Below, one piece after another: positions 483 to 12,992 of a stretch of DNA of 64,000 nucleotides; position 1 is the stretch's first letter; each line of letters opens with the position of its first letter. Source of the DNA: a virus; the IMG/VR virus record IMGVR_UViG_3300042890_002721, positions 1-64,000 of that record; one strand, written 5' to 3'. The notes under the pieces are model-generated. The model ran no database searches, was not told where the DNA came from, and worked only from the letters and a program-made list of their open reading frames with translations. The position numbers and the translations under genes were made by a program.

Positions 483-740
483 TTAATCCCACTCTTCAAA
501 AGTTTGTTCTCTATTCTCGATTACACAACGTAACCCTTTTAGTATATCACAATGATATGTAACAAATTTACCATCAATCACCATCACTGTGTTCACACCC
601 AAAGCTGTAAAGAACTTATCTTTATCAATCTCATGTTTTTCTAAGATAGTCATTATCTCACTACCCAAGAATCCTTGCATATGTTTGGTTGGGTAGTCGT
701 AAATAAACGACTCAACATTTTCACTAGTTAACTTTTCCAT
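483..740 (-). CDS. hypothetical protein
   Basis: ORF track 483..770; likely ATG start at 740 (MEKLTSEN). Confidence 0.7.
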   Translation of the reverse strand: MEKLTSENVESFIYDYPTKHMQGFLGSEIMTILEKHEIDKDKFFTALGVNTVMVIDGKFVTYHCDILKGLRCVIENREQTFEEWD

Positions 741-897
741 CTTTATCCTTATTTTTGTCGTAAAATTCAATATCTACAAGAATATAAGCACCAATCATCA
801 ACATGATTGTCTCAAAACCAAGAAAATAAGCCCATATCTTAAACATAATAAAATATAAGACGTATTTTGCTATTTGACTATTTAATAATTTTTCCAT
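724..897 (-). CDS. small membrane protein (57 aa)
   Basis: Manual translation MEKLLNSQIAKYVLYFIMFKIWAYFLGFETIMLMIGAYILVDIEF...; directly behind TATATTTG promoter at 901. Confidence 0.6.
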   Translation of the reverse strand: MEKLLNSQIAKYVLYFIMFKIWAYFLGFETIMLMIGAYILVDIEFYDKNKDKDGKVN

Positions 898-942
898 ATA
901 CAAATATACAAAAATTATTTTGATTATGCAAGTTTTATAAAT

Positions 943-972
943 AAAAAAAACCCACCATAATGATGAGTTTTT
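943..972 (-). terminator. intrinsic terminator closing the RNA operon
   Basis: AAAACTCATCA-TTA-TGGTGGGTTTT followed by T run on minus strand. Confidence 0.7.
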
Positions 973-979
973 AATGTTT

Positions 980-1061
980 CAGAATAGAATTTGGGAATTG
1001 AACCCTTTCATTTAAATTTATGCAAATTTTAATTTAACCTTGTGTTTGCTGAATCTATTCT
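980..1061 (-). ncRNA. CAGCAA-stem element A (contains tRNA-like T-arm)
   Basis: AGAATAGA-TTCAGCAAAC...GGGTTCAATTCCC...TCTATTCT-G; 8-bp closing stem. Confidence 0.6.
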
Positions 1062-1067
1062 TTTTAG

Positions 1068-1137
1068 TAGCGAATCTGGAGTCGAACCAGCCCTTCGGGT
1101 TATGAGCCCATTATGCAACCACTTACACCATATCACA
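1068..1137 (-). tRNA. degenerate tRNA-Met(CAT), initiator-like, possibly pseudo
   Basis: D-arm, GGG-CTCATAA-CCC anticodon arm, CTGG-TTCGACT-CCAG T-arm; acceptor TGTGATA/ATTCGCT has several mismatches. Confidence 0.6.
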
Positions 1138-1142
1138 ATATT

Positions 1143-1637
1143 TTATTTGGTTGATTCCAATGATTTTTTAATTATATATGATATAGTACCTTTTGAAGAT
1201 ATGTCATATTTAACCATTAGTTCAGTGAAACTAAAACCGTTATTTCTATCATTAATAATATCATGATGATTGTATTTCAAATTAGCTTTACTAGCAGTAT
1301 ACACCCTTTTTTCTTTAGGTATATCTAACATGTTTTCACTTTGAGTTCCAATCCCGATATTTTCATATGAGTTATCCGTTGATACCCCGTTTAAATGTCT
1401 AACTACCATATCTTCGCCAAAAATAATATCACCAAATTTTTGAAAAGCTTGAAGTTTATGAACAAAAGACCTAGTTGGGTTTAACCCCTTCTCTAATCTA
1501 ATATTAAAAGATAAGTAACCCTTTTTAGTTTTACTCAATGATATTGATTTACCGTTGTTATTTGTAACAATACCGTTTTCATCAACAACATAACCTCTTT
1601 CATTACTATTTCTAGTAATCATCTCTTGTTTAGTCAT
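1143..1637 (-). CDS. HNH homing endonuclease
   Basis: VHKL...VVRHLNGVSTDNSYENIGIGTQSEN HNH_3-type motif, C-terminal HTH-like segment. Confidence 0.85.
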   Translation of the reverse strand: MTKQEMITRNSNERGYVVDENGIVTNNNGKSISLSKTKKGYLSFNIRLEKGLNPTRSFVHKLQAFQKFGDIIFGEDMVVRHLNGVSTDNSYENIGIGTQSENMLDIPKEKRVYTASKANLKYNHHDIINDRNNGFSFTELMVKYDISSKGTISYIIKKSLESTK

Positions 1638-1716
1638 TTTTTTTTTATTAACTTCTTAGTCACCCAACATTAGGTGTGCAATAATCACTACGTGCAAGTG
1701 AGTTAATACGATTATC

Positions 1717-1789
1717 TAGCGACAGAAGGATTCGAACCCCCGACCTCAAGGTTATGAGCCTTGCGAGCTGACCACTGCTCCATGTCGCA
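1717..1789 (-). tRNA. tRNA-Met(CAT), initiator-type
   Basis: Full cloverleaf TGCGACA/TGTCGCT with 1:72 mismatch, CAAGG-CTCATAA-CCTTG, TTCGAAT loop; CCA not encoded. Confidence 0.9.
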
Positions 1790-1794
1790 ATATG

Positions 1795-1866
1795 TCGGTT
1801 ATAATGGATTCGAACCATTTTTCTTCGTCCTCCATGGACGATGTATTTCCCTAATACTACTAACCG
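1795..1866 (-). tRNA. tRNA-Pro(TGG), atypical anticodon loop
   Basis: CGGTTAG/ATAACCG-A (C1-G72, A73), TCGTC-CATGGAG-GACGA, AATGG-TTCGAAT-CCATT. Confidence 0.75.
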
Positions 1867-1870
1867 AGTT

Positions 1871-1934
1871 TGACCAGAATCAATTTTTTTTCTTTATATA
1901 GTAGAGTTTAATTGCTGTAATGATTCTTTTGTCA
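1871..1934 (-). ncRNA. CAGCAA-stem element B
   Basis: TGAC-AAA-AGAATCA-TTACAGCAAT...TGATTCT-G-GTCA. Confidence 0.6.
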
Positions 1935-1940
1935 ATATCT

Positions 1941-2140
1941 TATCTCAAGGTGTAAGTTCGTTTTTATTTTACATGACTAACGTGTACATGGTAGTAGATT
2001 TTACATGCCCTCACAACATGTTCAGTTTTATTCAACGAACAACCACACCTAAGTGACTGCTTTTTTGTGTATAGAGACTGGACTCTTCCATCTTAGAATT
2101 TGTAGTTTTTGTTCGTTTGCTGAACACACCTTTTTAGATA
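1941..2140 (-). ncRNA. CAGCAA-stem element C (long insert)
   Basis: TATCT-AAA-AAGGTGT-GTTCAGCAAAC...ACACCTT-G-AGATA. Confidence 0.6.
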
Positions 2141-2154
2141 ATTTTTATAATAAG

Positions 2155-2162
2155 TAAAGAAC
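2155..2162 (-). promoter_or_regulatory. boxA-like antitermination element
   Basis: ACGTTCTTTA just after the RNA operon promoter; same sequence precedes the tmRNA at 3535..3542. Confidence 0.55.
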
Positions 2163-2180
2163 GTTTGTTTTAATATATAT

Positions 2181-2213
2181 GCAAATATACAACAAAAACA
2201 CACCCGTGTCAAG
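2181..2213 (-). promoter_or_regulatory. Bacteroidetes-type sigma70 promoter of RNA operon
   Basis: CTTGACACGGGT...GTATATTTGC (-7 TAnnTTTG). Confidence 0.7.
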
Positions 2214-2235
2214 TAATTTTTAATTTATTTTTAAT

Positions 2236-2466
2236 TTATTCTGTAACTTGTTGATTATCAACACTAATTTCTTGTACTATTTCTTCAATAATCAAGAACA
2301 CATCTTGAGTCTTATTGAATGTATGTACCACATTGATTACTTTATGGTATTGGTCATTTAGAAAAATGTATTCATTAATTCTAGGGATAATAGATAATTT
2401 TAGGTTCCTTTTTATTGGTTGCCATTTACTATCTAATATTGATATAGTATATTTAAGTTTGAACAT
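2236..2466 (-). CDS. hypothetical protein
   Basis: ORF track; TATTTATA motif upstream. Confidence 0.65.
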   Translation of the reverse strand: MFKLKYTISILDSKWQPIKRNLKLSIIPRINEYIFLNDQYHKVINVVHTFNKTQDVFLIIEEIVQEISVDNQQVTE

Positions 2467-2544
2467 AGTATAAATATATTTATTATTTTGTTATAGTAAA
2501 GTATTTATAGATAAATAATAACATACTTTTAATTCTTAGAAAAC

Positions 2545-2613
2545 ATGGGATGCGGATGCGGAAAACCAAAAGGTACTACACCACCACCACCACCACCACC
2601 ACCAAGCAGATAA
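2545..2613 (+). CDS. 22-aa Cys/poly-Pro peptide MGCGCGKPKGTTPPPPPPPPSR
   Basis: Manual translation; GTATTTATA at 2501 upstream, terminator at 2635 downstream. Confidence 0.6.
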   Translation: MGCGCGKPKGTTPPPPPPPPSR

Positions 2614-2634
2614 GCTTGATAGTTGTAGACACTA

Positions 2635-2662
2635 AAGAGGACCCATTATAGGTCCTCTTTTA
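2635..2662. terminator. bidirectional terminator
   Basis: AAAGAGGACC-CATTATA-GGTCCTCTTT between convergent genes. Confidence 0.75.
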
Positions 2663-2665
2663 TTT

Positions 2666-2980
2666 TTAGTTTTGTTCACTAGGTTCGTCTGGTGTTTCTT
2701 CAATCGTAGGTTCTTGTTTTGGTGGTATTTCTTTTGAGTTTTTGTTTTTAATCGCATGATAAGTTGTCATACCAAATAATGCAGCTATAAAACTATAATC
2801 AATTGTTAAAACCATTTCTAATTGTGTTAGATTACCTAGTGTTAACCATTTTACATGAATAATAACAACCAAAAGGACAATAATAAAAGCTACTATTTTT
2901 CTAGTACTAAAACCACCTTCTTTTATATCTAAACTTTTAATTAGATTATCTGTAATTTTATCTTTTAATTCTTGTTTCAT
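2666..2980 (-). CDS. two-TM membrane protein, holin-like
   Basis: FSTRK followed by two hydrophobic helices and a charged tail; likely start MKQELK. Confidence 0.55.
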   Translation of the reverse strand: MKQELKDKITDNLIKSLDIKEGGFSTRKIVAFIIVLLVVIIHVKWLTLGNLTQLEMVLTIDYSFIAALFGMTTYHAIKNKNSKEIPPKQEPTIEETPDEPSEQN

Positions 2981-3032
2981 AATATATTGTTTTATAATAA
3001 ATATCCACAAAAAAATTTTATTATAAAACAAC

Positions 3033-3063
3033 AAAACCCCAACAAAGCGACTTGTTGAGGTTT
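3033..3063 (-). terminator. terminator after tmRNA
   Basis: AAACCTCAACAA-GTCGCT-TTGTTGGGGTTTT. Confidence 0.65.
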
Positions 3064-3157
3064 AAAATTTCTTACTCAAAGGCGATACGTGAGCAGAATC
3101 ATATAGATTATTTGTTTTTATACTATCACTAAAAACCGAAAAGCACAAAAAACGGTC

Positions 3158-3527
3158 TGGTGGAGATGGGGGGAATCGAACCCCCGTGTTGAATATTCTT
3201 CAAAAGCCTTCTACATGTTTAGGTCATGATTTGCAAAACCATCCGAAACTTTACTACCTCTTTTTACCGTGTAATTTAAGCTTCACACCAGATGGATTAC
3301 CATTATCTTGGTGGATTACCACCATCGGTAGGTTACTACCATTAGCAATTATTAGGCAACTGCAACCTCTCCTCCAATTACAGACATGCTGCATTCGTCA
3401 AGGAAATTTTCTGATACGATGAAATCGTTGTCAATTCAATTGTTTAATAGACAGATTTAAGTGCTTCCAATCTAGCACTACATGCTTACCAATTACGACT
3501 ATAATCAGTCAATACCTTGGCATCCCC
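3158..3527 (-). ncRNA. ssrA: tmRNA
   Basis: 5' GGGGATG...GGTATTGAC, 3' GGGGGTTCGATTCCCCC-CATCTCC-ACCA with G3.U70; internal tag ORF ending TAATAA. Confidence 0.92.
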
Positions 3528-3792
3528 ATAAAATTAAAGAACGTGTTTTATAAATATGTGGGTTCTTACTAGAAAAACCCACTATCTATATTTCTCTCTA
3601 CAAAGTTACAACATTTATAAACAAAATGCAAGTAAAATCGTATTTATTTTTCAATTAATTCAAAAATAACTTTATATAACTCATTAACTGCTGTTTCATC
3701 ACCATCAATAAAGTCATATTCAACATCATAATTATTCAATAGAGTTTTAATGTCTTTGTCTTTTACTTTTTGTCCTTCTAAGGTATCAGCCA

Positions 3793-4491
3793 TTATTTTT
3801 TAGGTTTTTTGATAATTATATCATCGATAATACCGTAAGCTTTAGCTTCATCAGCGTTTAACCACATATCACGATTTGTATCGATTAAAACTTGTGCTGG
3901 GTCTTTATCAGTGTATTCACCCAATAATCTGAATAACTCAGTGTTGTATTTCTCACCTTCAGCGATAGAAACACGAATGTCTTGTAAGTTACCAGAAGCA
4001 CCAGTTGATACTTGGTGTAACATTACTCTACTGTGAGCAAGGCTATAACGTTTACCTTTGGTACCAGCACCTAATAAGATACTTCCCATACTTGCTGCCA
4101 TACCAGTGTTGATTGTTGCAATATCAGAAGTAATGTAGTTCATAACATCAACAATTGATAAACCACTTTTAACACTCCCACCAGGTGAATCAACATGTAG
4201 TATAATATCTTTAACCTCTAAGTTATCCAAGAACATAAGTTGTGCTTGTGCAACTGTACTCATTCTATCGTTAACTGGTCCAGCTAACCAAATGATTCTA
4301 TCCATCATAAGTCTTGAAAAGATATCCATCTGAGTAACACGCATTTCTCTTTCTTCAAGAATGTATGGTGTTAATGATGCTTGTGCTCCGTATAGTCTAT
4401 CTTGAGTTTGCTCCCAATAGTGGAATTCTAAAGATGAAATACCCATATGCTTGATAGCATAGTTTTTAAATTCGTCTGTAATGTTGTTCAT
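3793..4491 (-). CDS. clpP: ATP-dependent Clp protease proteolytic subunit
   Basis: DIFSRLMMDRII, DSPGGSV, GMAASMGS, MLHQ, RDMWLNADEAKAYGIID. Confidence 0.97.
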   Translation of the reverse strand: MNNITDEFKNYAIKHMGISSLEFHYWEQTQDRLYGAQASLTPYILEEREMRVTQMDIFSRLMMDRIIWLAGPVNDRMSTVAQAQLMFLDNLEVKDIILHVDSPGGSVKSGLSIVDVMNYITSDIATINTGMAASMGSILLGAGTKGKRYSLAHSRVMLHQVSTGASGNLQDIRVSIAEGEKYNTELFRLLGEYTDKDPAQVLIDTNRDMWLNADEAKAYGIIDDIIIKKPKK

Positions 4492-5598: not shown

Positions 5599-6606
5599 TT
5601 ACACATTTTCAAAATTCTCTAATTTTTCTTTTAATTCAATAACCAAAGCTTTGGTATCGTCATCTAAATTTTTAGGTATATCAACACTTAGAGTAATCAA
5701 TACATCACCACGATTATCTTTACCGAAAGCTTTAAGACCTTTATTTTGAATTCTTAATTGGGAACCAACATCACTATATTCTGGAATGTTCATTCTAATT
5801 TTACCACCATCTATGGTGTTTACATCAATTTTACCACCTAATATCAAATGTGGGTAAGATAATTTAAGTGTCATTTTTAAGTCATTACCGCTTCTAACAT
5901 AAACATCGTTAGGTATTTCATTGATTCTTATATGTAAGTCACCATTATTACCACCTCTAACACCATGTCCTTTTCCAGCCATAACAAATATCATATCTTC
6001 AACAACACCAGATGGTATTTCAACTTCAATGGTTTCTTCAGTTAGTTTAACACCTTTACCTTGACAAGAGTTACATTTTGTATCGTATGTTAATCCTATA
6101 CCATCACATGAATAACATGGAATTGCTTGTTGTACTTGACCAAATGGTGTACTAAATGTTTGTATAATAACCCCATTACCATCACAGTCAACACAATCAT
6201 GTGCACTATGACCACCATGACCATTACAATCACCACATTTGTCATTTCGTTTATATTTATAATTTTTTTTAACACCAGTATAAATCTCTTCTAGTGTTAC
6301 CCTAACAACTAAGTTCATATTTTCACCAACTTTTTCTTGTCTAGTAAAATGTGCTCTTTGTTGTCTAGCTTGTTGTACACGCCTAGCACCATCATGACCA
6401 AATCTATCATAACTAGCTTTTTTATCTTTATCCGATAAAACTTCATAAGCTTCAGAAACTTCTTTAAACTTATCTTCAGCATCTTTACTACCACCATTTT
6501 TATCTGGGTGTAATTCTTTTGCTAACTTTCTATACGCTTTCTTAAGCTCTTCTGGTGTTGATGATTTACTTACACCTAAAACCACATAATAATCCCTTTT
6601 TGCCAT
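5599..6606 (-). CDS. dnaJ: DnaJ chaperone
   Basis: J-domain with HPD, four CxxCxGxG repeats, C-terminal domain. Confidence 0.97.
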
Positions 6607-8684: not shown

Positions 8685-10112
8685 TTATACTGTAACAGCA
8701 GCGTAACGCTCAGAGTCAATAACACTCAACATCATAGATATTGGAGTCATGTCTTTCCCACCTAACAAATTAGTAAGCAATGCTGGGCTGAACCCAGATA
8801 CCAATGCTGTACCTTCTTTATCGAAACGTACTGGTTTGTTGTTATCACCTCTTGATTGGATGTTCCAATATACCAACTTAGGCATTGTGTACCCAGCTTG
8901 AGCATAAAGAGATTCAACCATATCTTGAGCAGTCCACCCACGAACACTACCACAATTGAATTCCATGTCTGATAACATAAGAATCATTGTTGGCATTTCT
9001 TCTGGTGCAACATTTGACTCAACAGCTTTAGTTAAAAGCATTCTAAACGCTTTTTCAACATTAGTGTCGTACCCAACTGGACCTTGGATTTGTCTGTATC
9101 TCTCAGACAAACTACCTTTAAGGTATTGTAGTGTTGGGTTAGATGTGAACGTGATGAACGCATCTTTGAAGGGACCTTCGTTTCTTTCTGAGATGTATAA
9201 CCCCAAAGAGATTGCTACATCCATACAAGTTACGTTAGCATTTTGACCAGCTGGAGAACCCATTGACCCAGAAACGTCTACCATTGGTAAAAGTCTCTCG
9301 TTGTTACCTTCCATGTAGTTAGGCAAAGCATCCCATTGTACGTTAGCACCTTTGGTATTACCAGTCTTCATGTTTTTAACGATGTCGTATGGGTATACTG
9401 CACCAGCATTGATTTTAGCTTCACCTTTCTCAACACTTGTCAAGTAAGCTTGGAAACGCTCTAAATCATTTTTAGAGAAAGCTTTCATTAAATCACTCAT
9501 TGCTTTTGAAGGCAATTTAGAGTAATCGATTTTAGAGAATTCTCTAGAACACATTAATTGCTCAACAGTGTTAGAGTTTTCAACTAATAACTTACGGTAC
9601 TCTTTTGGAGATAAACCTAAGTGTTTTCTAAGTGCAGACGCTTGTCTTTTCTTATCACGATTACCAACATTTGGACGTGGCATCCATTTAGCACAAAGAC
9701 CATTTTTATCAGCTAAACCAGTAGCTATTAATGATAATGCTTGGTTTTCCAATGGGGTACCAACCAACACTAAAAGGTCATCCCATCTACCGTATTCAGC
9801 AAATAAACCTAAGTTTTTTGCAAGAGTTTCAGTACGATTTTCAGCCAAATAAGTAACGATATCTCTAAAGATTTGTCTTTCACCAGCACCACCACGTACA
9901 TCACGAGCCCAAAATAACAAACGCATAGCTGTTAATTGATTTTCACCAAAAGCTTTCGTAAATGCATTTATAAGACGAGTCTTATCTTGACCTCTCATCG
10001 CACCAATTTGGAAGAACAAGTCAACACAAAGGTTTAAAGATGATGAATTAGTTACCATACCGTTTTCAGTATAAGAATTTTTTGTTTGCATAGCTTTTAA
10101 TAATGTACTCAT
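8685..10112 (-). CDS. DUF2828-family helical + vWA protein (TROVE/Ro60-like architecture)
   Basis: TENG, RDVRGGAGER, YGRWDDL, AKWMPR, MIDAS VDVSGSM, LSDMEF, VYWN, VSGFSP. Confidence 0.88.
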   Translation of the reverse strand: MSTLLKAMQTKNSYTENGMVTNSSSLNLCVDLFFQIGAMRGQDKTRLINAFTKAFGENQLTAMRLLFWARDVRGGAGERQIFRDIVTYLAENRTETLAKNLGLFAEYGRWDDLLVLVGTPLENQALSLIATGLADKNGLCAKWMPRPNVGNRDKKRQASALRKHLGLSPKEYRKLLVENSNTVEQLMCSREFSKIDYSKLPSKAMSDLMKAFSKNDLERFQAYLTSVEKGEAKINAGAVYPYDIVKNMKTGNTKGANVQWDALPNYMEGNNERLLPMVDVSGSMGSPAGQNANVTCMDVAISLGLYISERNEGPFKDAFITFTSNPTLQYLKGSLSERYRQIQGPVGYDTNVEKAFRMLLTKAVESNVAPEEMPTMILMLSDMEFNCGSVRGWTAQDMVESLYAQAGYTMPKLVYWNIQSRGDNNKPVRFDKEGTALVSGFSPALLTNLLGGKDMTPISMMLSVIDSERYAAVTV

Positions 10113-10139: not shown

Positions 10140-10172
10140 GCAAAGTTACCATTTTTTTTGACTCGTGTCAAG
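10140..10172 (-). promoter_or_regulatory. sigma70-type promoter of DUF2828 gene
   Basis: CTTGACACGAGT...GTAACTTTGC; near-identical upstream element to the RNA operon promoter. Confidence 0.7.
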
Positions 10173-10224
10173 TTTTTTTGTTTATTTTTTTAAATTATTT
10201 TTTAAGTGACTGAAATATAGTTAC

Positions 10225-10749
10225 TTATAACTTAGTAAACCAAGCTTTAAATTTAGTACTAGTATCATATAAGTTTACAAATTCAACACCAATAATTTGT
10301 GAACCACTAGCAAAACCTAAACCTAATTGGTCAGTACTACAGTGCATGTAGTTAACTGGCATAAGTGGTTTAAATGTTAATGTCATATTATTTTGTGCTG
10401 AATATAATGTATATGAAGCACTGTTTGTTGTATCTGAACCAATATAATATTTGATATTAGTTACAAAGTGTAATGTATCATACATTATTGTTGTCCCAAA
10501 ACCGTTCATAATCTTTGTTAATAACCAAGTTGTACCAACTAAATCATTTGTTTGTGTTCCACTAGTCCAATTTGGTAATGTACCACCATTGGTATATTGA
10601 TTTTGCCAATTAGTAGTGTCAACACTTGTTGGTGGAACATACGGTGCTGGGTTATTTTTTTTACAACCAGTAACTGTAAACATTATTAACACTGTTGTTA
10701 TAATACCTAACAAAAAAGCAATGTTTTTATAAATTTTAAAATCTTTCAT
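10225..10749 (-). CDS. lipoprotein
   Basis: Signal peptide with lipobox VTG-C followed by KK. Confidence 0.8.
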   Translation of the reverse strand: MKDFKIYKNIAFLLGIITTVLIMFTVTGCKKNNPAPYVPPTSVDTTNWQNQYTNGGTLPNWTSGTQTNDLVGTTWLLTKIMNGFGTTIMYDTLHFVTNIKYYIGSDTTNSASYTLYSAQNNMTLTFKPLMPVNYMHCSTDQLGLGFASGSQIIGVEFVNLYDTSTKFKAWFTKL

Positions 10750-12579: not shown

Positions 12580-12650
12580 AACTTTTATACACTTATTTAT
12601 AATAAATATTTACTATTAATATTAGAATCCATATATTTGAATAAAAACTT

Positions 12651-12992
12651 ATGATTTCATTAACATTTATTTTGATTTGTTACGGAGCATGTAACAATAT
12701 GATTTACGGCTCAGTATTTGAAGGGTTTAGAAAGTTTATGTCTAGATTCGGGACAAGCGGTTATAGCTTGCATAAATTATTCACATGTTTTATGTGTCTT
12801 GGAACTTGGATGGGTTTTGCATTATCATTGATAATGGCACATTTCGGTTTTGAACATTTAACACCAATGGGTGCTTTAGGTATAACAAATTTAGGATTGT
12901 TAGTATTCTTAAATGGATTGTTGAGTGGTGGTGGTGTATGGTTAACTCACACACTACAAGAAGCCCTAGAACGAGCGTTCAATAAAGAGTAA
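12651..12992 (+). CDS. membrane protein (DUF1360-like)
   Basis: LFTCFMCLGTW motif, TM helices; TATATTTG promoter upstream. Confidence 0.75.
   Translation: MISLTFILICYGACNNMIYGSVFEGFRKFMSRFGTSGYSLHKLFTCFMCLGTWMGFALSLIMAHFGFEHLTPMGALGITNLGLLVFLNGLLSGGGVWLTHTLQEALERAFNKE

What the first reader, a model, noticed from the sequence alone, without database searches (positions are those of the whole stretch)
980..1061. Element A carries a tRNA-mimic T-arm inside the CAGCAA stem
Seen: the insert contains an AAATTT-GCAT-AAATTT hairpin followed by GGG-TTCAATT-CCC, a canonical TTCRANY T-loop. There is no acceptor/CCA end. Known: bacterial YrlA-type Y RNAs combine a Ro-binding stem with a tRNA-like domain. 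Inference: a tRNA decoy tethered to the DUF2828 protein.
Basis: partly seen in the sequence, partly recalled or inferred. Interest (0 to 1): 0.7.

Follow-up and report, generated by a model that had tools for sequence, protein, structure and literature searches.

The report
Phage Y-RNA-like small RNA with tRNA elbow
This 82-base stretch is a small phage RNA gene from a large, apparently undescribed RNA family that sits beside a Ro60-like phage protein in many unrelated phages; this copy carries a miniature tRNA-like arm.

Summary
Window 980-1061 has an 8-bp closing stem, UU-CAGCAA, a GG loop, an A/U hairpin, a GGG-UUCAAUU-CCC T-arm and a final G. ARAGORN and Rfam call no tRNA there.

Element A belongs to a multi-copy "frame" family: a 7-bp covarying terminal stem, then CAGCAA, a variable insert, the 3' strand and a G. 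A model built without it finds it at E 1.3e-5. Inserts range from about 30 A/U-rich bases to full or permuted tRNA-like domains.

Frames track a DUF2828/DUF7788 gene:
- 35 of 39 related loci with the gene have frames, against 0 of 11 without it.
- 9 of 9 named phages from nine host genera have frames beside the gene.
- 0 of 5 tRNA-rich phages lacking the gene have any.

The window's protein folds confidently, and its 13 best structural matches are all Ro60. Canonical YrlA features are absent, so this is a parallel family, not a YrlA member.

Best reading: a Y-RNA-like partner of the Ro60-like protein. Binding is inferred, not shown. Two papers guessed at such RNAs without defining them. Short frames also resemble Dictyostelium Class I RNAs, below Rfam's threshold.

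The parts
980..1061 (-). Element A: the whole predicted small RNA, 82 nt. It is a CAGCAA-frame RNA with a reduced tRNA-like insert.
   Evidence: Model R1, built without it, matches 980-1061 full length at 36.1 bits, E 1.3e-5. Orthologues: L002 12719-12799, L005 13547-13627, L009 12696-12776, L025 13571-13648.
1054..1061 (-). 5' strand of the closing stem (AGAAUAGA).
   Evidence: Pairs over 8 bp with 981-988. Among the orthologues, pair 8 is A-U here and U-A in the other four; pair 3 is G-U in L002.
1046..1051 (-). Invariant CAGCAA motif, preceded by UU at 1052-1053. Proposed protein-recognition element.
   Evidence: Invariant in 56 of 56 aligned frames, but required by the selection. Present in the frames of all 9 named DUF2828 phages.
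1038..1039 (-). GG in an AAGGUUAA loop, a candidate mimic of D-loop G18-G19.
   Evidence: Invariant in 5 of 5 orthologues. A similar AAUGGUUAAAA sits in the Bacillus phage frame L122 3961-4053. The D-loop role is inference.
1014..1029 (-). AAAUUU-GCAU-AAAUUU hairpin, in the anticodon-arm position.
   Evidence: The sequence is kept in the orthologues but shows no covariation. It forms in the minimum-energy folds of L009 and L025 but not in that of the window copy.
993..1005 (-). T-arm mimic GGG-UUCAAUU-CCC.
   Evidence: The T-loop word is found 4 times against 0.08 expected. The loop is kept in 5 of 5 orthologues; the third stem pair is G-C here and in L002, U-A in L005, L009 and L025.
980..988 (-). 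3' strand of the closing stem (981-988) and the conserved unpaired terminal G (980).
   Evidence: The terminal G is invariant in alignment A1, but required by the selection. It is seen in the named-phage frames.
946..972 (-). Terminator-like hairpin followed by a U run, ending the RNA operon just after Element A.
   Evidence: 2 terminator-like sites in 850-2300 against 0.3 expected; only the one at 972-946 is on the operon's strand.
1068..1137 (-). Degenerate tRNA-Met-like gene directly upstream of Element A (6-nt spacer).
   Evidence: Rfam tRNA 24.2 bits, below the gathering score of 29, with 3 of 7 acceptor pairs broken. ARAGORN does not call it. The L002 orthologue at 12641-12712 is called tRNA-Met.
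1875..1927 (-). Element B: a short frame RNA (53 nt) of the same family.
   Evidence: R1 57 bits, but it is in the training set. Rfam Dicty_Class_I_RNA 34.1 bits, E 5.9e-4, gathering score 41.5.
1947..2132 (-). Element C: the same frame (GGUGUG-UU-CAGCAA ... UACACC-UUG) around an insert of about 170 nt of unknown nature.
   Evidence: Script scan. A related copy lies at L009 12021-12166. R1 does not find it.
2184..2212 (-). Promoter-like site TTGACA-17-TATATT upstream of Element C, the probable start of the RNA operon.
   Evidence: Best match of the scan, 11 of 12 positions. The total count of sites is not above chance.
8685..10112 (-). DUF2828 + DUF7788 protein (475 aa), a Ro60-like HEAT ring plus vWA domain. 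Proposed protein partner.
   Evidence: Pfam E 6e-37 and 4e-44. AlphaFold2 pLDDT 94.7. The 13 best Foldseek PDB matches are all Ro60/TROVE, E 2.7e-10 to 2e-6.

Best explanation
Element A is a small non-coding RNA gene on the minus strand. It is the last gene of a phage RNA operon. The order is: promoter near 2190, Element C, Element B, tRNA-Pro, tRNA-Met, an HNH gene, a degenerate tRNA-Met, Element A, and a terminator near 950.

It belongs to a widespread family of phage RNAs that share a 'frame'. The 5' and 3' ends pair into a 7-8 bp helix whose sequence covaries. The helix is followed on the 5' side by single-stranded (N)U(U/A)-CAGCAA and closed by a conserved unpaired G.

I propose that this frame is the binding module for the phage's Ro60-like DUF2828/DUF7788 protein, as the terminal stem of a Y RNA is for Ro60. 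The variable insert would be the effector module. In Element A the insert is a minimal tRNA-elbow mimic (GG loop, A/U hairpin, T-arm). It would present a tRNA-like surface to a tRNA-recognising enzyme or nuclease, as YrlA does.

Shown here: membership of the family, conservation of the T-arm, the genomic linkage, and the Ro60 fold of the protein.
Inferred: binding to the protein, the factor recruited or decoyed, and the biological role. The role is probably RNA surveillance or counter-defence during infection.
For: 1. Family and covariation.
- 56 short frames were aligned. All 7 stem pairs show changes on both sides; covariation score 0.617 against 0.195 in shuffles and at most 0.137 when the partner is slid.
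- Model R1 finds Element A, which was not in its training set, at 36.1 bits, E 1.3e-5. It is one of only 2 matches below E 0.01 in the window and in the whole 72.6-kb record.

2. Strand and place. In 80 loci around ClpP relatives, 81 of 81 R1 matches are on the ClpP, tRNA and tmRNA strand.

3. Linkage to DUF2828.
- Among the 50 ClpP loci that cover both regions: 35 have gene and frames, 4 the gene only, 0 frames only, 11 neither (Fisher p 3.7e-8, loci not independent).
- 13 of 14 records found by a frame-plus-T-arm DNA pattern hold PF11443 within about 1.5-5 kb. In the one miss the frame lies 2 kb from the contig end.
- 9 of 9 named phages with the gene have frames 16 nt to 3.7 kb away: 20 script candidates on the gene's strand against 1 on the other, and 5 of 9 also with R1 E<=0.01. 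Hosts are E. coli, Cronobacter, Listeria, Mycobacterium, Vibrio, Campylobacter, Bacillus, Staphylococcus and Sinorhizobium.
- Whole-genome scans: all 8 R1 matches in 5 of 5 gene-bearing phages lie within 1 kb of the gene on its strand. There are 0 matches in 5 tRNA-bearing phages that lack the gene: T4, T5, Acj61, Xoo-sp13 and phi4:1_13.

4. The protein is Ro60-like.

5. tRNA-like inserts recur in the same frame.
- The insert of the Mycobacterium phage Whirlwind frame at L118 9544-9672 matches Rfam YrlA positions 24-84 at 38.3 bits, E 4.8e-7 in a 401-nt search.
- The insert in L084 matches Rfam tRNA at 35.8 bits, above the gathering score of 29, yet ARAGORN does not call it.
- 24 script candidates carry a T-arm.

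6. The T-arm of Element A is kept in 4 of 4 orthologues with one compensatory pair. The GG is invariant.

7. Parallel case. The TROVE phage CcrColossus has its own, different frame around tRNA-like inserts and gives no R1 match.

8. Literature, passages read.
- Listeria phage CKA15 makes very abundant probable ncRNAs within 2 kb upstream of its Rsr-like gene (PMC12282133).
- Bas63 gp130 is Ro60-like, sits upstream of the tRNAs and counters the ppl defence (PMC11482910).
Against: - No binding or expression data exist for this phage. No RNA run holds the region.
- In the window the gene is 6.6-7.7 kb from the frames, with more than ten genes between them.
- The window copy has only a 3-bp T stem. 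Its folding energy is not significant: z about -1.4 to -1.6.
- The middle hairpin shows no covariation. The minimum-energy fold instead pairs part of the CAGCAA motif with UUUGC.
- Stem pairing in A1 is partly circular, because my scanner required at least 7 perfect pairs, CAGCAA and the 3' G.
- 4 of 39 gene-bearing loci gave no R1 match. R1 missed the frames of Cronobacter S13 and Vibrio K567, which I found by script and by eye.
- The loci counted are related phages, so the p-value overstates independence.
- Rfam YrlA does not match Element A, and the YrlA GNCGAA motif is absent (PMC4201824).
- I did not verify that the abundant CKA15 RNAs coincide with frames.
Confidence: 0.6

Rival explanations
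1. The frame is a processing or stability cassette. It lets small RNAs be cut out of, and survive within, tRNA polycistrons. It would be recognised by host RNases or by some other phage factor, not by the DUF2828 protein. The linkage to that gene would then merely reflect that both sit in the tRNA region.
For: Frames abut tRNAs by 5-9 nt inside dense tRNA arrays. The DUF2828 gene itself usually borders the tRNA array. In the window the frames are nearer to the tRNAs than to the gene.
Against: Five phages with tRNA genes but no DUF2828 have no frames. 11 related loci without the gene have none. In the Staphylococcus, Campylobacter and Mycobacterium phages the frames flank the gene, with only one tRNA 0.1-2.5 kb away. 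The motif is identical in phages of four bacterial phyla, which points to a phage-encoded reader rather than host RNases.
Confidence: 0.2
2. Element A is simply a decaying tRNA gene (a pseudo-tRNA) at the end of the tRNA cluster. It kept a T-arm by chance of descent and has no function of its own.
For: It lies next to a degenerate tRNA-Met. The T stem is only 3 bp. L009 and L025 fold as small cloverleaves. Fuller tRNA-like inserts exist in relatives.
Against: The closing stem, CAGCAA and terminal G are shared with RNAs that have no tRNA-like part. The element is kept in 4 orthologous loci, with compensatory changes in both the closing stem and the T stem and with an invariant GG. The same layout (GG loop plus T-arm next to the 3' strand) recurs in a Bacillus phage.
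Confidence: 0.08
3. The repeats act at the DNA level, as promoter or terminator modules, recombination sites or homing-endonuclease targets, and not as RNA.
For: An HNH gene sits in the cluster.
Against: 81 of 81 matches lie on one strand. The stem covaries with G-U pairs allowed, while its sequence is free. A single promoter-like and a single terminator-like site bracket the whole cluster.
Confidence: 0.04

Closest known systems
Bacterial and phage Y RNAs of the YrlA type (Rfam RF02553; Chen et al. 2014, PMC4201824; abstract, sections 5 and 6, passages and supplementary table 4 read)
   Same: A small RNA whose 5' and 3' ends form a stem with a conserved single-stranded motif, enclosing a tRNA-like module with a T-arm. 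Several copies per genome, on the same strand and near a Ro60-type gene, often with RtcB or RNA ligase nearby. In Mycobacterium phage Whirlwind the insert of one CAGCAA frame matches the YrlA model directly.
   Different: The partner gene is DUF2828/DUF7788, not Pfam TROVE. The conserved motif is CAGCAA with a terminal G, not GNCGAA. Rfam YrlA does not match Element A. Element A lacks the acceptor hairpin and D stem. Many family members have no tRNA-like part at all.
Thermus phage phiLo Ro60 with Yrl1/Yrl2 (PMC12135203, passages read; PDB 9KOP and 9L5Y)
   Same: A phage-encoded Ro60-type protein with phage-encoded stem-bulge RNAs upstream of the gene. Best structural match of the window's protein.
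   Different: 18% sequence identity. The Yrl RNAs carry the CGAA motif. No CAGCAA frame is described.
Dictyostelium Class I RNAs (Rfam RF01414; Kjellin et al. 2021, PMC7919456, passages and section 15 read)
   Same: 42-65 nt; a short covarying stem joining the ends; conserved termini (start AAG, end CUGU, against phage AG ... CUG); an 11-nt motif ending in ACAGCAA directly after the 5' strand; an A/U-rich variable middle; a multi-copy gene family. The Rfam model matches 9 phage frames full length at 25.7-35.1 bits.
   Different: All matches are below the gathering score of 41.5. None of the frames of four named phages matched at E<=1. The eukaryotic DUSE promoter has no counterpart. The known binder is the RRM protein Rnp1A. 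Whether dictyostelids have a DUF2828 protein was not tested. Element A itself (82 nt, T-arm) is not matched by this model.
tRNA
   Same: A T-arm with a UUCAAUU loop, a GG loop, a terminal 8-bp stem, and a location in a tRNA operon.
   Different: No ARAGORN or Rfam tRNA match. No anticodon loop of 7 nt, no D stem, no discriminator or CCA. An 8-nt CAGCAA linker is inserted after the terminal stem.

Membership tests
tRNA (RF00005) | Cloverleaf recognised by tRNA finders. | tested here: not met
   ARAGORN: 2 genes in the window, none at 980-1061. Rfam E<=10: no tRNA match there.
tRNA (RF00005) | T-arm with a T-loop of consensus UUCRANY. | tested here: met
   GGG-UUCAAUU-CCC at 993-1005. The stem is only 3 bp against the usual 5.
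YrlA Y RNA (RF02553) | Match to the family covariance model. | tested here: not met
   No YrlA match at E<=10 in 700-3700. The model does match a frame insert in phage Whirlwind: 38.3 bits, gathering score 69.
YrlA Y RNA (RF02553) | GNCGAA(N0-1)G motif in the Ro-binding module (Chen 2014, Fig. 1 legend). | tested here: not met
   Element A contains no CG dinucleotide.
YrlA Y RNA (RF02553) | Encoded within about 4 kb of, and on the same strand as, a TROVE-domain Ro60 gene. | tested here: not met
   Same strand, but 7.6 kb away, and the gene is DUF2828/DUF7788 with no Pfam TROVE match. It is nevertheless Ro60-like by fold.
YrlA Y RNA (RF02553) | T-arm, acceptor-like hairpin and D-arm together. 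| tested here: not met
   Only the T-arm and a GG loop are present.
CAGCAA-frame RNAs (family defined here, model R1) | Terminal 7-8 bp stem, 1-4 nt linker, CAGCAA, and a 3' strand followed by G. | tested here: met
   R1 full-length match at 36.1 bits, E 1.3e-5; Element A was not in the training set.
CAGCAA-frame RNAs (family defined here, model R1) | Same strand as, and in the same genome as, a DUF2828/DUF7788 gene. | tested here: met
   Gene at 8685-10112 on the minus strand. The synteny is kept in 35 related loci.
CAGCAA-frame RNAs (family defined here, model R1) | Binding to the DUF2828 protein. | not testable with these tools
   No protein-RNA assay or predictor was available.
Dictyostelium Class I RNA (RF01414) | Match to the model at or above the gathering score of 41.5. 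| tested here: not met
   Element A has no match. Element B scores 34.1 bits. Eight other phage frames score 25.7-35.1 bits.
Dictyostelium Class I RNA (RF01414) | Upstream DUSE promoter element and dictyostelid origin. | tested here: not met
   The record is a phage contig with bacterial-type genes.
Ro60/TROVE protein (for the partner gene) | HEAT-repeat ring plus a vWA domain with a MIDAS motif. | tested here: met
   AlphaFold2 pLDDT 94.7, pTM 0.93. The 13 best PDB matches are all Ro60, about 500 aligned columns, TM 0.35-0.62. The DxSxS motif aligns to TROVE chains.
Ro60/TROVE protein (for the partner gene) | Pfam TROVE (PF05731) sequence match. | tested here: not met
   Only PF11443 and PF25043 match. 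The CcrColossus control does match TROVE.

The most novel reading that the evidence does not exclude
The phage CAGCAA-frame RNAs and the Class I RNAs of dictyostelid amoebae are the same kind of molecule. Both would be ligands built on a short terminal stem plus (U)UACAGCAA for a Ro60-like DUF2828-type protein. Class I RNAs have been held to be unique to Dictyostelia and tied to multicellular development. On this reading they would be a eukaryotic branch of an ancient, mostly viral Y-RNA-like system, and their unknown function would become testable through that protein. My evidence for this is only resemblance: the same terminal AG...CUG, the same motif in the same place, and the same length and copy number, with nine sub-threshold full-length Rfam matches. 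I could not test whether dictyostelids encode a DUF2828 protein. I also could not read Avesson 2011, which names three further Class I-binding proteins.
Probability: 0.1. Interest if true: 0.9.

Novelty: new variant of a known kind. Interest (0 to 1): 0.75.

Why it matters
DUF2828 proteins are common in phages. They occur in 711 of 50,697 GenBank phage records and form 6,458 clusters at 50% identity. They are found in well-studied groups: Felix O1-like phages, the P100/A511-like Listeria phages used in food safety, and Staphylococcus, Campylobacter and Mycobacterium phages.

One member was reported to counter a bacterial defence system. Another sits beside the most abundant transcripts of an infected cell. 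Yet no RNA partner had been defined in the papers I could search.

A simple, searchable RNA signature next to these genes gives that partner a concrete candidate. The signature is a stem, CAGCAA, a variable insert, the return strand and a G. It explains many 'gaps' and odd long 'tRNAs' in phage tRNA arrays. It extends the Ro60/Y-RNA principle to a second protein family with its own RNA code. It also shows that tRNA-like modules have been plugged into such frames repeatedly. Binding and defence experiments in laboratory phages become straightforward to design.

Tried and rejected
- DNA search of 900-3600 against GenBank phages found only tRNA matches and no close relative.
- Single-sequence folding is not significant on either strand.
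- Enrichment of the word TTCAGCAAAC in the window is not significant.
- phmmer of the protein against PDB sequences gave nothing useful. The profile search gave only weak TROVE hits, E 0.024. The fold search settled the question.
- RNAalifold on the 5 orthologues misplaces the T-arm, because MAFFT shifts it by one column between the two subgroups. I therefore read the T stem with the loops in register.
- No RNA holder is listed for 900-2240.
- AcrIIIA1, a protein-RNA anti-CRISPR of Staphylococcus phages (PMC11662646), was considered as the known function. It was rejected because it is a 10-kDa protein unrelated to DUF2828.
- Literature searches for a prior description returned nothing that defines these RNAs: 'DUF2828' (5 papers, none on phage RNAs), 'UCP015417/PF11443/IPR011205', 'Ro-like/phage/Y RNA', 'Ro60/bacteriophage/tRNA-like/anti-phage' and the 11-nt Class I motif (0 papers).
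- Avesson 2011 and Aspegren 2004 are not held.
- The ESM Atlas returned only DUF2828 clusters and no structure search.
- I tried to locate the annotated CKA15 record so as to match its ncRNAs to frames. The accession I guessed was an unannotated sister phage.
- This scan holds no notes on this genome.

Full report
**What the window is**

The window is the first 64 kb of a 72.6-kb IMG/VR virus record, judged 21% complete. GC content is about 29%. It carries phage genes: baseplate J and gp25, lysozyme, a sigma factor, ribonucleotide reductase, ClpP, DnaJ and RNase HII. DNA of this phage turns up in lake-water metagenomes.

Between 946 and 3527 the minus strand carries an RNA-gene cluster:
- tmRNA at 3158-3527.
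- Element C at 1947-2132.
- Element B at 1875-1927.
- tRNA-Pro and tRNA-Met.
- An HNH gene.
- A degenerate tRNA-Met-like gene at 1068-1137.
- Element A at 980-1061.

The best promoter-like site (11 of 12 positions) lies at 2212-2184. A terminator-like hairpin lies at 972-946. Both are on the minus strand.

**The observation**

There is an 8-bp closing stem, UU-CAGCAA, a GG, the AAAUUU-GCAU-AAAUUU hairpin, GGG-UUCAAUU-CCC, then the 3' strand and a final G.

- The T-loop word occurs 4 times in 64 kb against 0.08 expected. The other three are in real tRNAs and the tmRNA.
- ARAGORN and Rfam see no tRNA and no YrlA at this place.
- Folding energy alone is unremarkable: z -1.4 to -1.6.

**A family, not a single oddity**

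A DNA pattern for TTCAGCAA followed by the T-arm found 19 loci in IMG/VR. Sixteen of them show the same layout; three look like ordinary tRNAs.

A script then searched for CAGCAA preceded by a stem strand whose complement follows within 260 nt. It turned up many copies in the 80 loci fetched around relatives of the neighbouring ClpP gene.

I aligned 56 short copies. All seven stem pairs change on both sides. The covariation score is 0.617, against 0.195 in shuffles and at most 0.137 when the partner is slid. Pairing itself is partly circular, because the script demanded it. Several features were not demanded, however: the AGRAU...AUYCU consensus, the A-rich stretch before the 3' strand, and the common strand and location.

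The covariance model R1 was built from these 56 copies.
- It finds Element A, which was not used to build it, at 36.1 bits, E 1.3e-5.
- It finds nothing else below E 0.01 in the window or the whole record, apart from Element B.
- In the 80 ClpP loci it finds 81 copies, all 81 on the ClpP strand.

**Orthologues of Element A**

Four loci hold an orthologue: L002, L005, L009 and L025.
- The T-loop is kept in all of them.
- With the loops in register, the third T-stem pair is G-C in the window and L002 and U-A in the other three.
- The fourth pair is A·A against G-C.
- The GG is invariant.
- The closing stem has one compensatory pair and one G-U pair.
- L009 and L025 fold as small cloverleaves: terminal stem, GG hairpin, A/U hairpin and T-arm.
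- A Bacillus phage frame (L122 3961-4053) has the same plan.

**What the inserts are**

Inserts range from about 30 A/U-rich bases to about 170 nt. By script there are 165 unique candidate frames. Of these, 81 are 75 nt or shorter and 24 carry a T-arm. A few of the long ones are false positives.

The T-arm inserts come in three forms:
- The minimal form of Element A.
- A full tRNA-like cloverleaf. L084 1981-2079 matches Rfam tRNA at 35.8 bits, yet ARAGORN does not call it.
- A permuted form, T-arm then acceptor hairpin then D-arm, like YrlA.

In Mycobacterium phage Whirlwind the permuted insert matches Rfam YrlA positions 24-84 at 38.3 bits. The surrounding stem is of the CAGCAA type.

**Link to the DUF2828 gene**

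The window's DUF2828/DUF7788 gene lies at 8685-10112 on the minus strand.

- *Related loci.* Among the 50 ClpP loci that cover both regions, 35 have gene and frames, 4 the gene only, none frames only, and 11 neither. Fisher p is 3.7e-8, but the loci are related phages.
- *Pattern-found records.* 13 of 14 hold PF11443 about 1.5-5 kb from the frames. The proteins are only about 30% identical to the window's. The single miss has its frame 2 kb from the contig end.
- *GenBank phages.* The protein matches 711 of 50,697 records.
- *Named phages.* I fetched nine from nine host genera, and all nine have frames on the gene's strand. Distances range from 16 nt (Sinorhizobium phiM19, Campylobacter F367) to 3.7 kb (Vibrio K567). 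Five of the nine also have R1 matches at E<=0.01.
- *Whole-genome scans.* In five of these phages every one of the 8 R1 matches lies beside the gene.
- *Negative control.* Five tRNA-bearing phages without the gene (T4, T5, Acj61, Xoo-sp13, Cellulophaga phi4:1_13) have no R1 match.

**The protein**

Pfam sees only DUF2828 and DUF7788. A profile of 83 homologues picks TROVE/Ro60 chains first in the PDB, but weakly (E 0.024), through the vWA metal-site motif. The AlphaFold2 model is confident: pLDDT 94.7, pTM 0.93. Its 13 best Foldseek matches are all Ro60 proteins over about 500 columns, E 2.7e-10 to 2e-6. They come from Thermus phage phiLo, Xenopus, Deinococcus and human. The next matches are isolated vWA domains at E > 2e-3.

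**A parallel case**

Caulobacter phage CcrColossus has a true TROVE protein. Upstream it has an array of RNAs with tRNA-like inserts in a different frame, and R1 gives no match there. These are the YrlA RNAs listed by Chen et al. (supplementary table). So two branches of Ro60-like proteins each have their own RNA frame, and both frames carry tRNA-like cargo.

**Literature**

- Chen 2014 searched only genomes with annotated TROVE proteins and defined the GNCGAA motif.
- The CKA15 paper reports that small ORF-like loci near the tRNAs, within 2 kb upstream of an Rsr-like gene, give 7-34% of all transcripts. It guesses that they may be Y RNAs. The protein was also found in virions.
- The PhageMaP preprint reports that Bas63 gp130 is Ro60-like, lies upstream of the tRNAs and counters the ppl defence. 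It guesses that some 'tRNAs' are Y RNAs.
- In the sister Listeria phage LMTA-94, three frames lie within 340 nt upstream of the gene. I could not check that these are the abundant CKA15 RNAs.
- None of my searches found a paper defining the CAGCAA frame. Supplements of bioRxiv preprints, and the CKA15 docx, were not seen and could bear on this.

**Resemblance to Dictyostelium Class I RNAs**

Rfam's only repeated match to short frames is Dicty_Class_I_RNA. It matches Element B at 34.1 bits and eight frames in nine other loci at 25.7-35.1 bits. All matches are full length and all are below the gathering score of 41.5. No frame of the four named phages matched at E<=1.

Kjellin 2021 describes Class I RNAs as 42-65 nt. 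They have a short covarying terminal stem, a conserved start AAG and end CUGU, and an 11-nt motif right after the 5' strand. The paper found them only in dictyostelids, using 25 bits as its model cut-off. The likeness is striking but may be convergent, and I could not test it further.

**Verdict**

Element A is a real, conserved member of a large RNA family that appears undescribed in the literature I could search. It is not a member of YrlA, tRNA or Class I as those families are defined.

Noticed in passing
window 1068-1137 (-) and 1143-1637 (-): A tRNA-Met-like gene with 3 of 7 acceptor pairs broken (Rfam 24.2 bits, not called by ARAGORN) is separated from the intact tRNA-Met (1716-1790) by an HNH endonuclease gene. 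Relatives L009 and L025 have two adjacent tRNA-Met genes with no HNH between them, so the endonuclease looks like an insertion.
   Followed up: partly
window 1947-2132 (-): Element C has the same CAGCAA frame around an insert of about 170 nt with no Rfam match. A related copy lies in L009 12021-12166. The nature of the insert is unknown.
   Followed up: no
window 3158-3527 (-), 3793-4491 (-), 5599-6606 (-): The phage encodes its own tmRNA (Rfam 74.8 bits) next to ClpP and, further on, a full DnaJ. This looks like a small protein-quality-control set carried by the phage. The tmRNA-ClpP pairing is kept in relatives.
   Followed up: no
L120 4958-5012 (Vibrio phage K567): A CAGCAA motif lies 25 nt upstream of the DUF2828 start codon. 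The strand complementary to its 5' stem overlaps that start codon. This may allow the protein to regulate its own mRNA.
   Followed up: no
L116 9895-10137 (Cronobacter phage S13): Two annotated 'tRNAs' of 121 and 113 nt just downstream of the DUF2828 gene carry inserts of about 45 nt with a shared UAUUCAGCA word. A frame with a permuted tRNA-like insert follows at 10154-10289.
   Followed up: partly
L117 3685-3783 (Listeria phage LMTA-94): A match to the 'drum' RNA motif above its gathering score (50.2 against 43 bits) lies inside the tRNA array.
   Followed up: no
L002 14047-14118, L005 16342-16413, L009 14655-14726, L087 1623-1713, L086 1559-1635: Relatives of this phage carry tRNAs with anticodons CUA (called tRNA-Pyl by ARAGORN) or UUA. 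These are candidate stop-codon suppressors. None lies in the window itself.
   Followed up: no
L119 2500-3620 (-) (Caulobacter phage CcrColossus): At least six tandem RNAs share a GGGUGGCGUAG...CUUCG...GUUCCCCC frame around tRNA-like inserts, upstream of a TROVE gene. Chen 2014 lists three of them as YrlA.
   Followed up: partly
window 2546-2611 (+): A 21-codon ORF encodes a Gly/Cys-rich start followed by eight prolines, in the gap between the RNA cluster and the tmRNA. There is no evidence that it is a gene.
   Followed up: no
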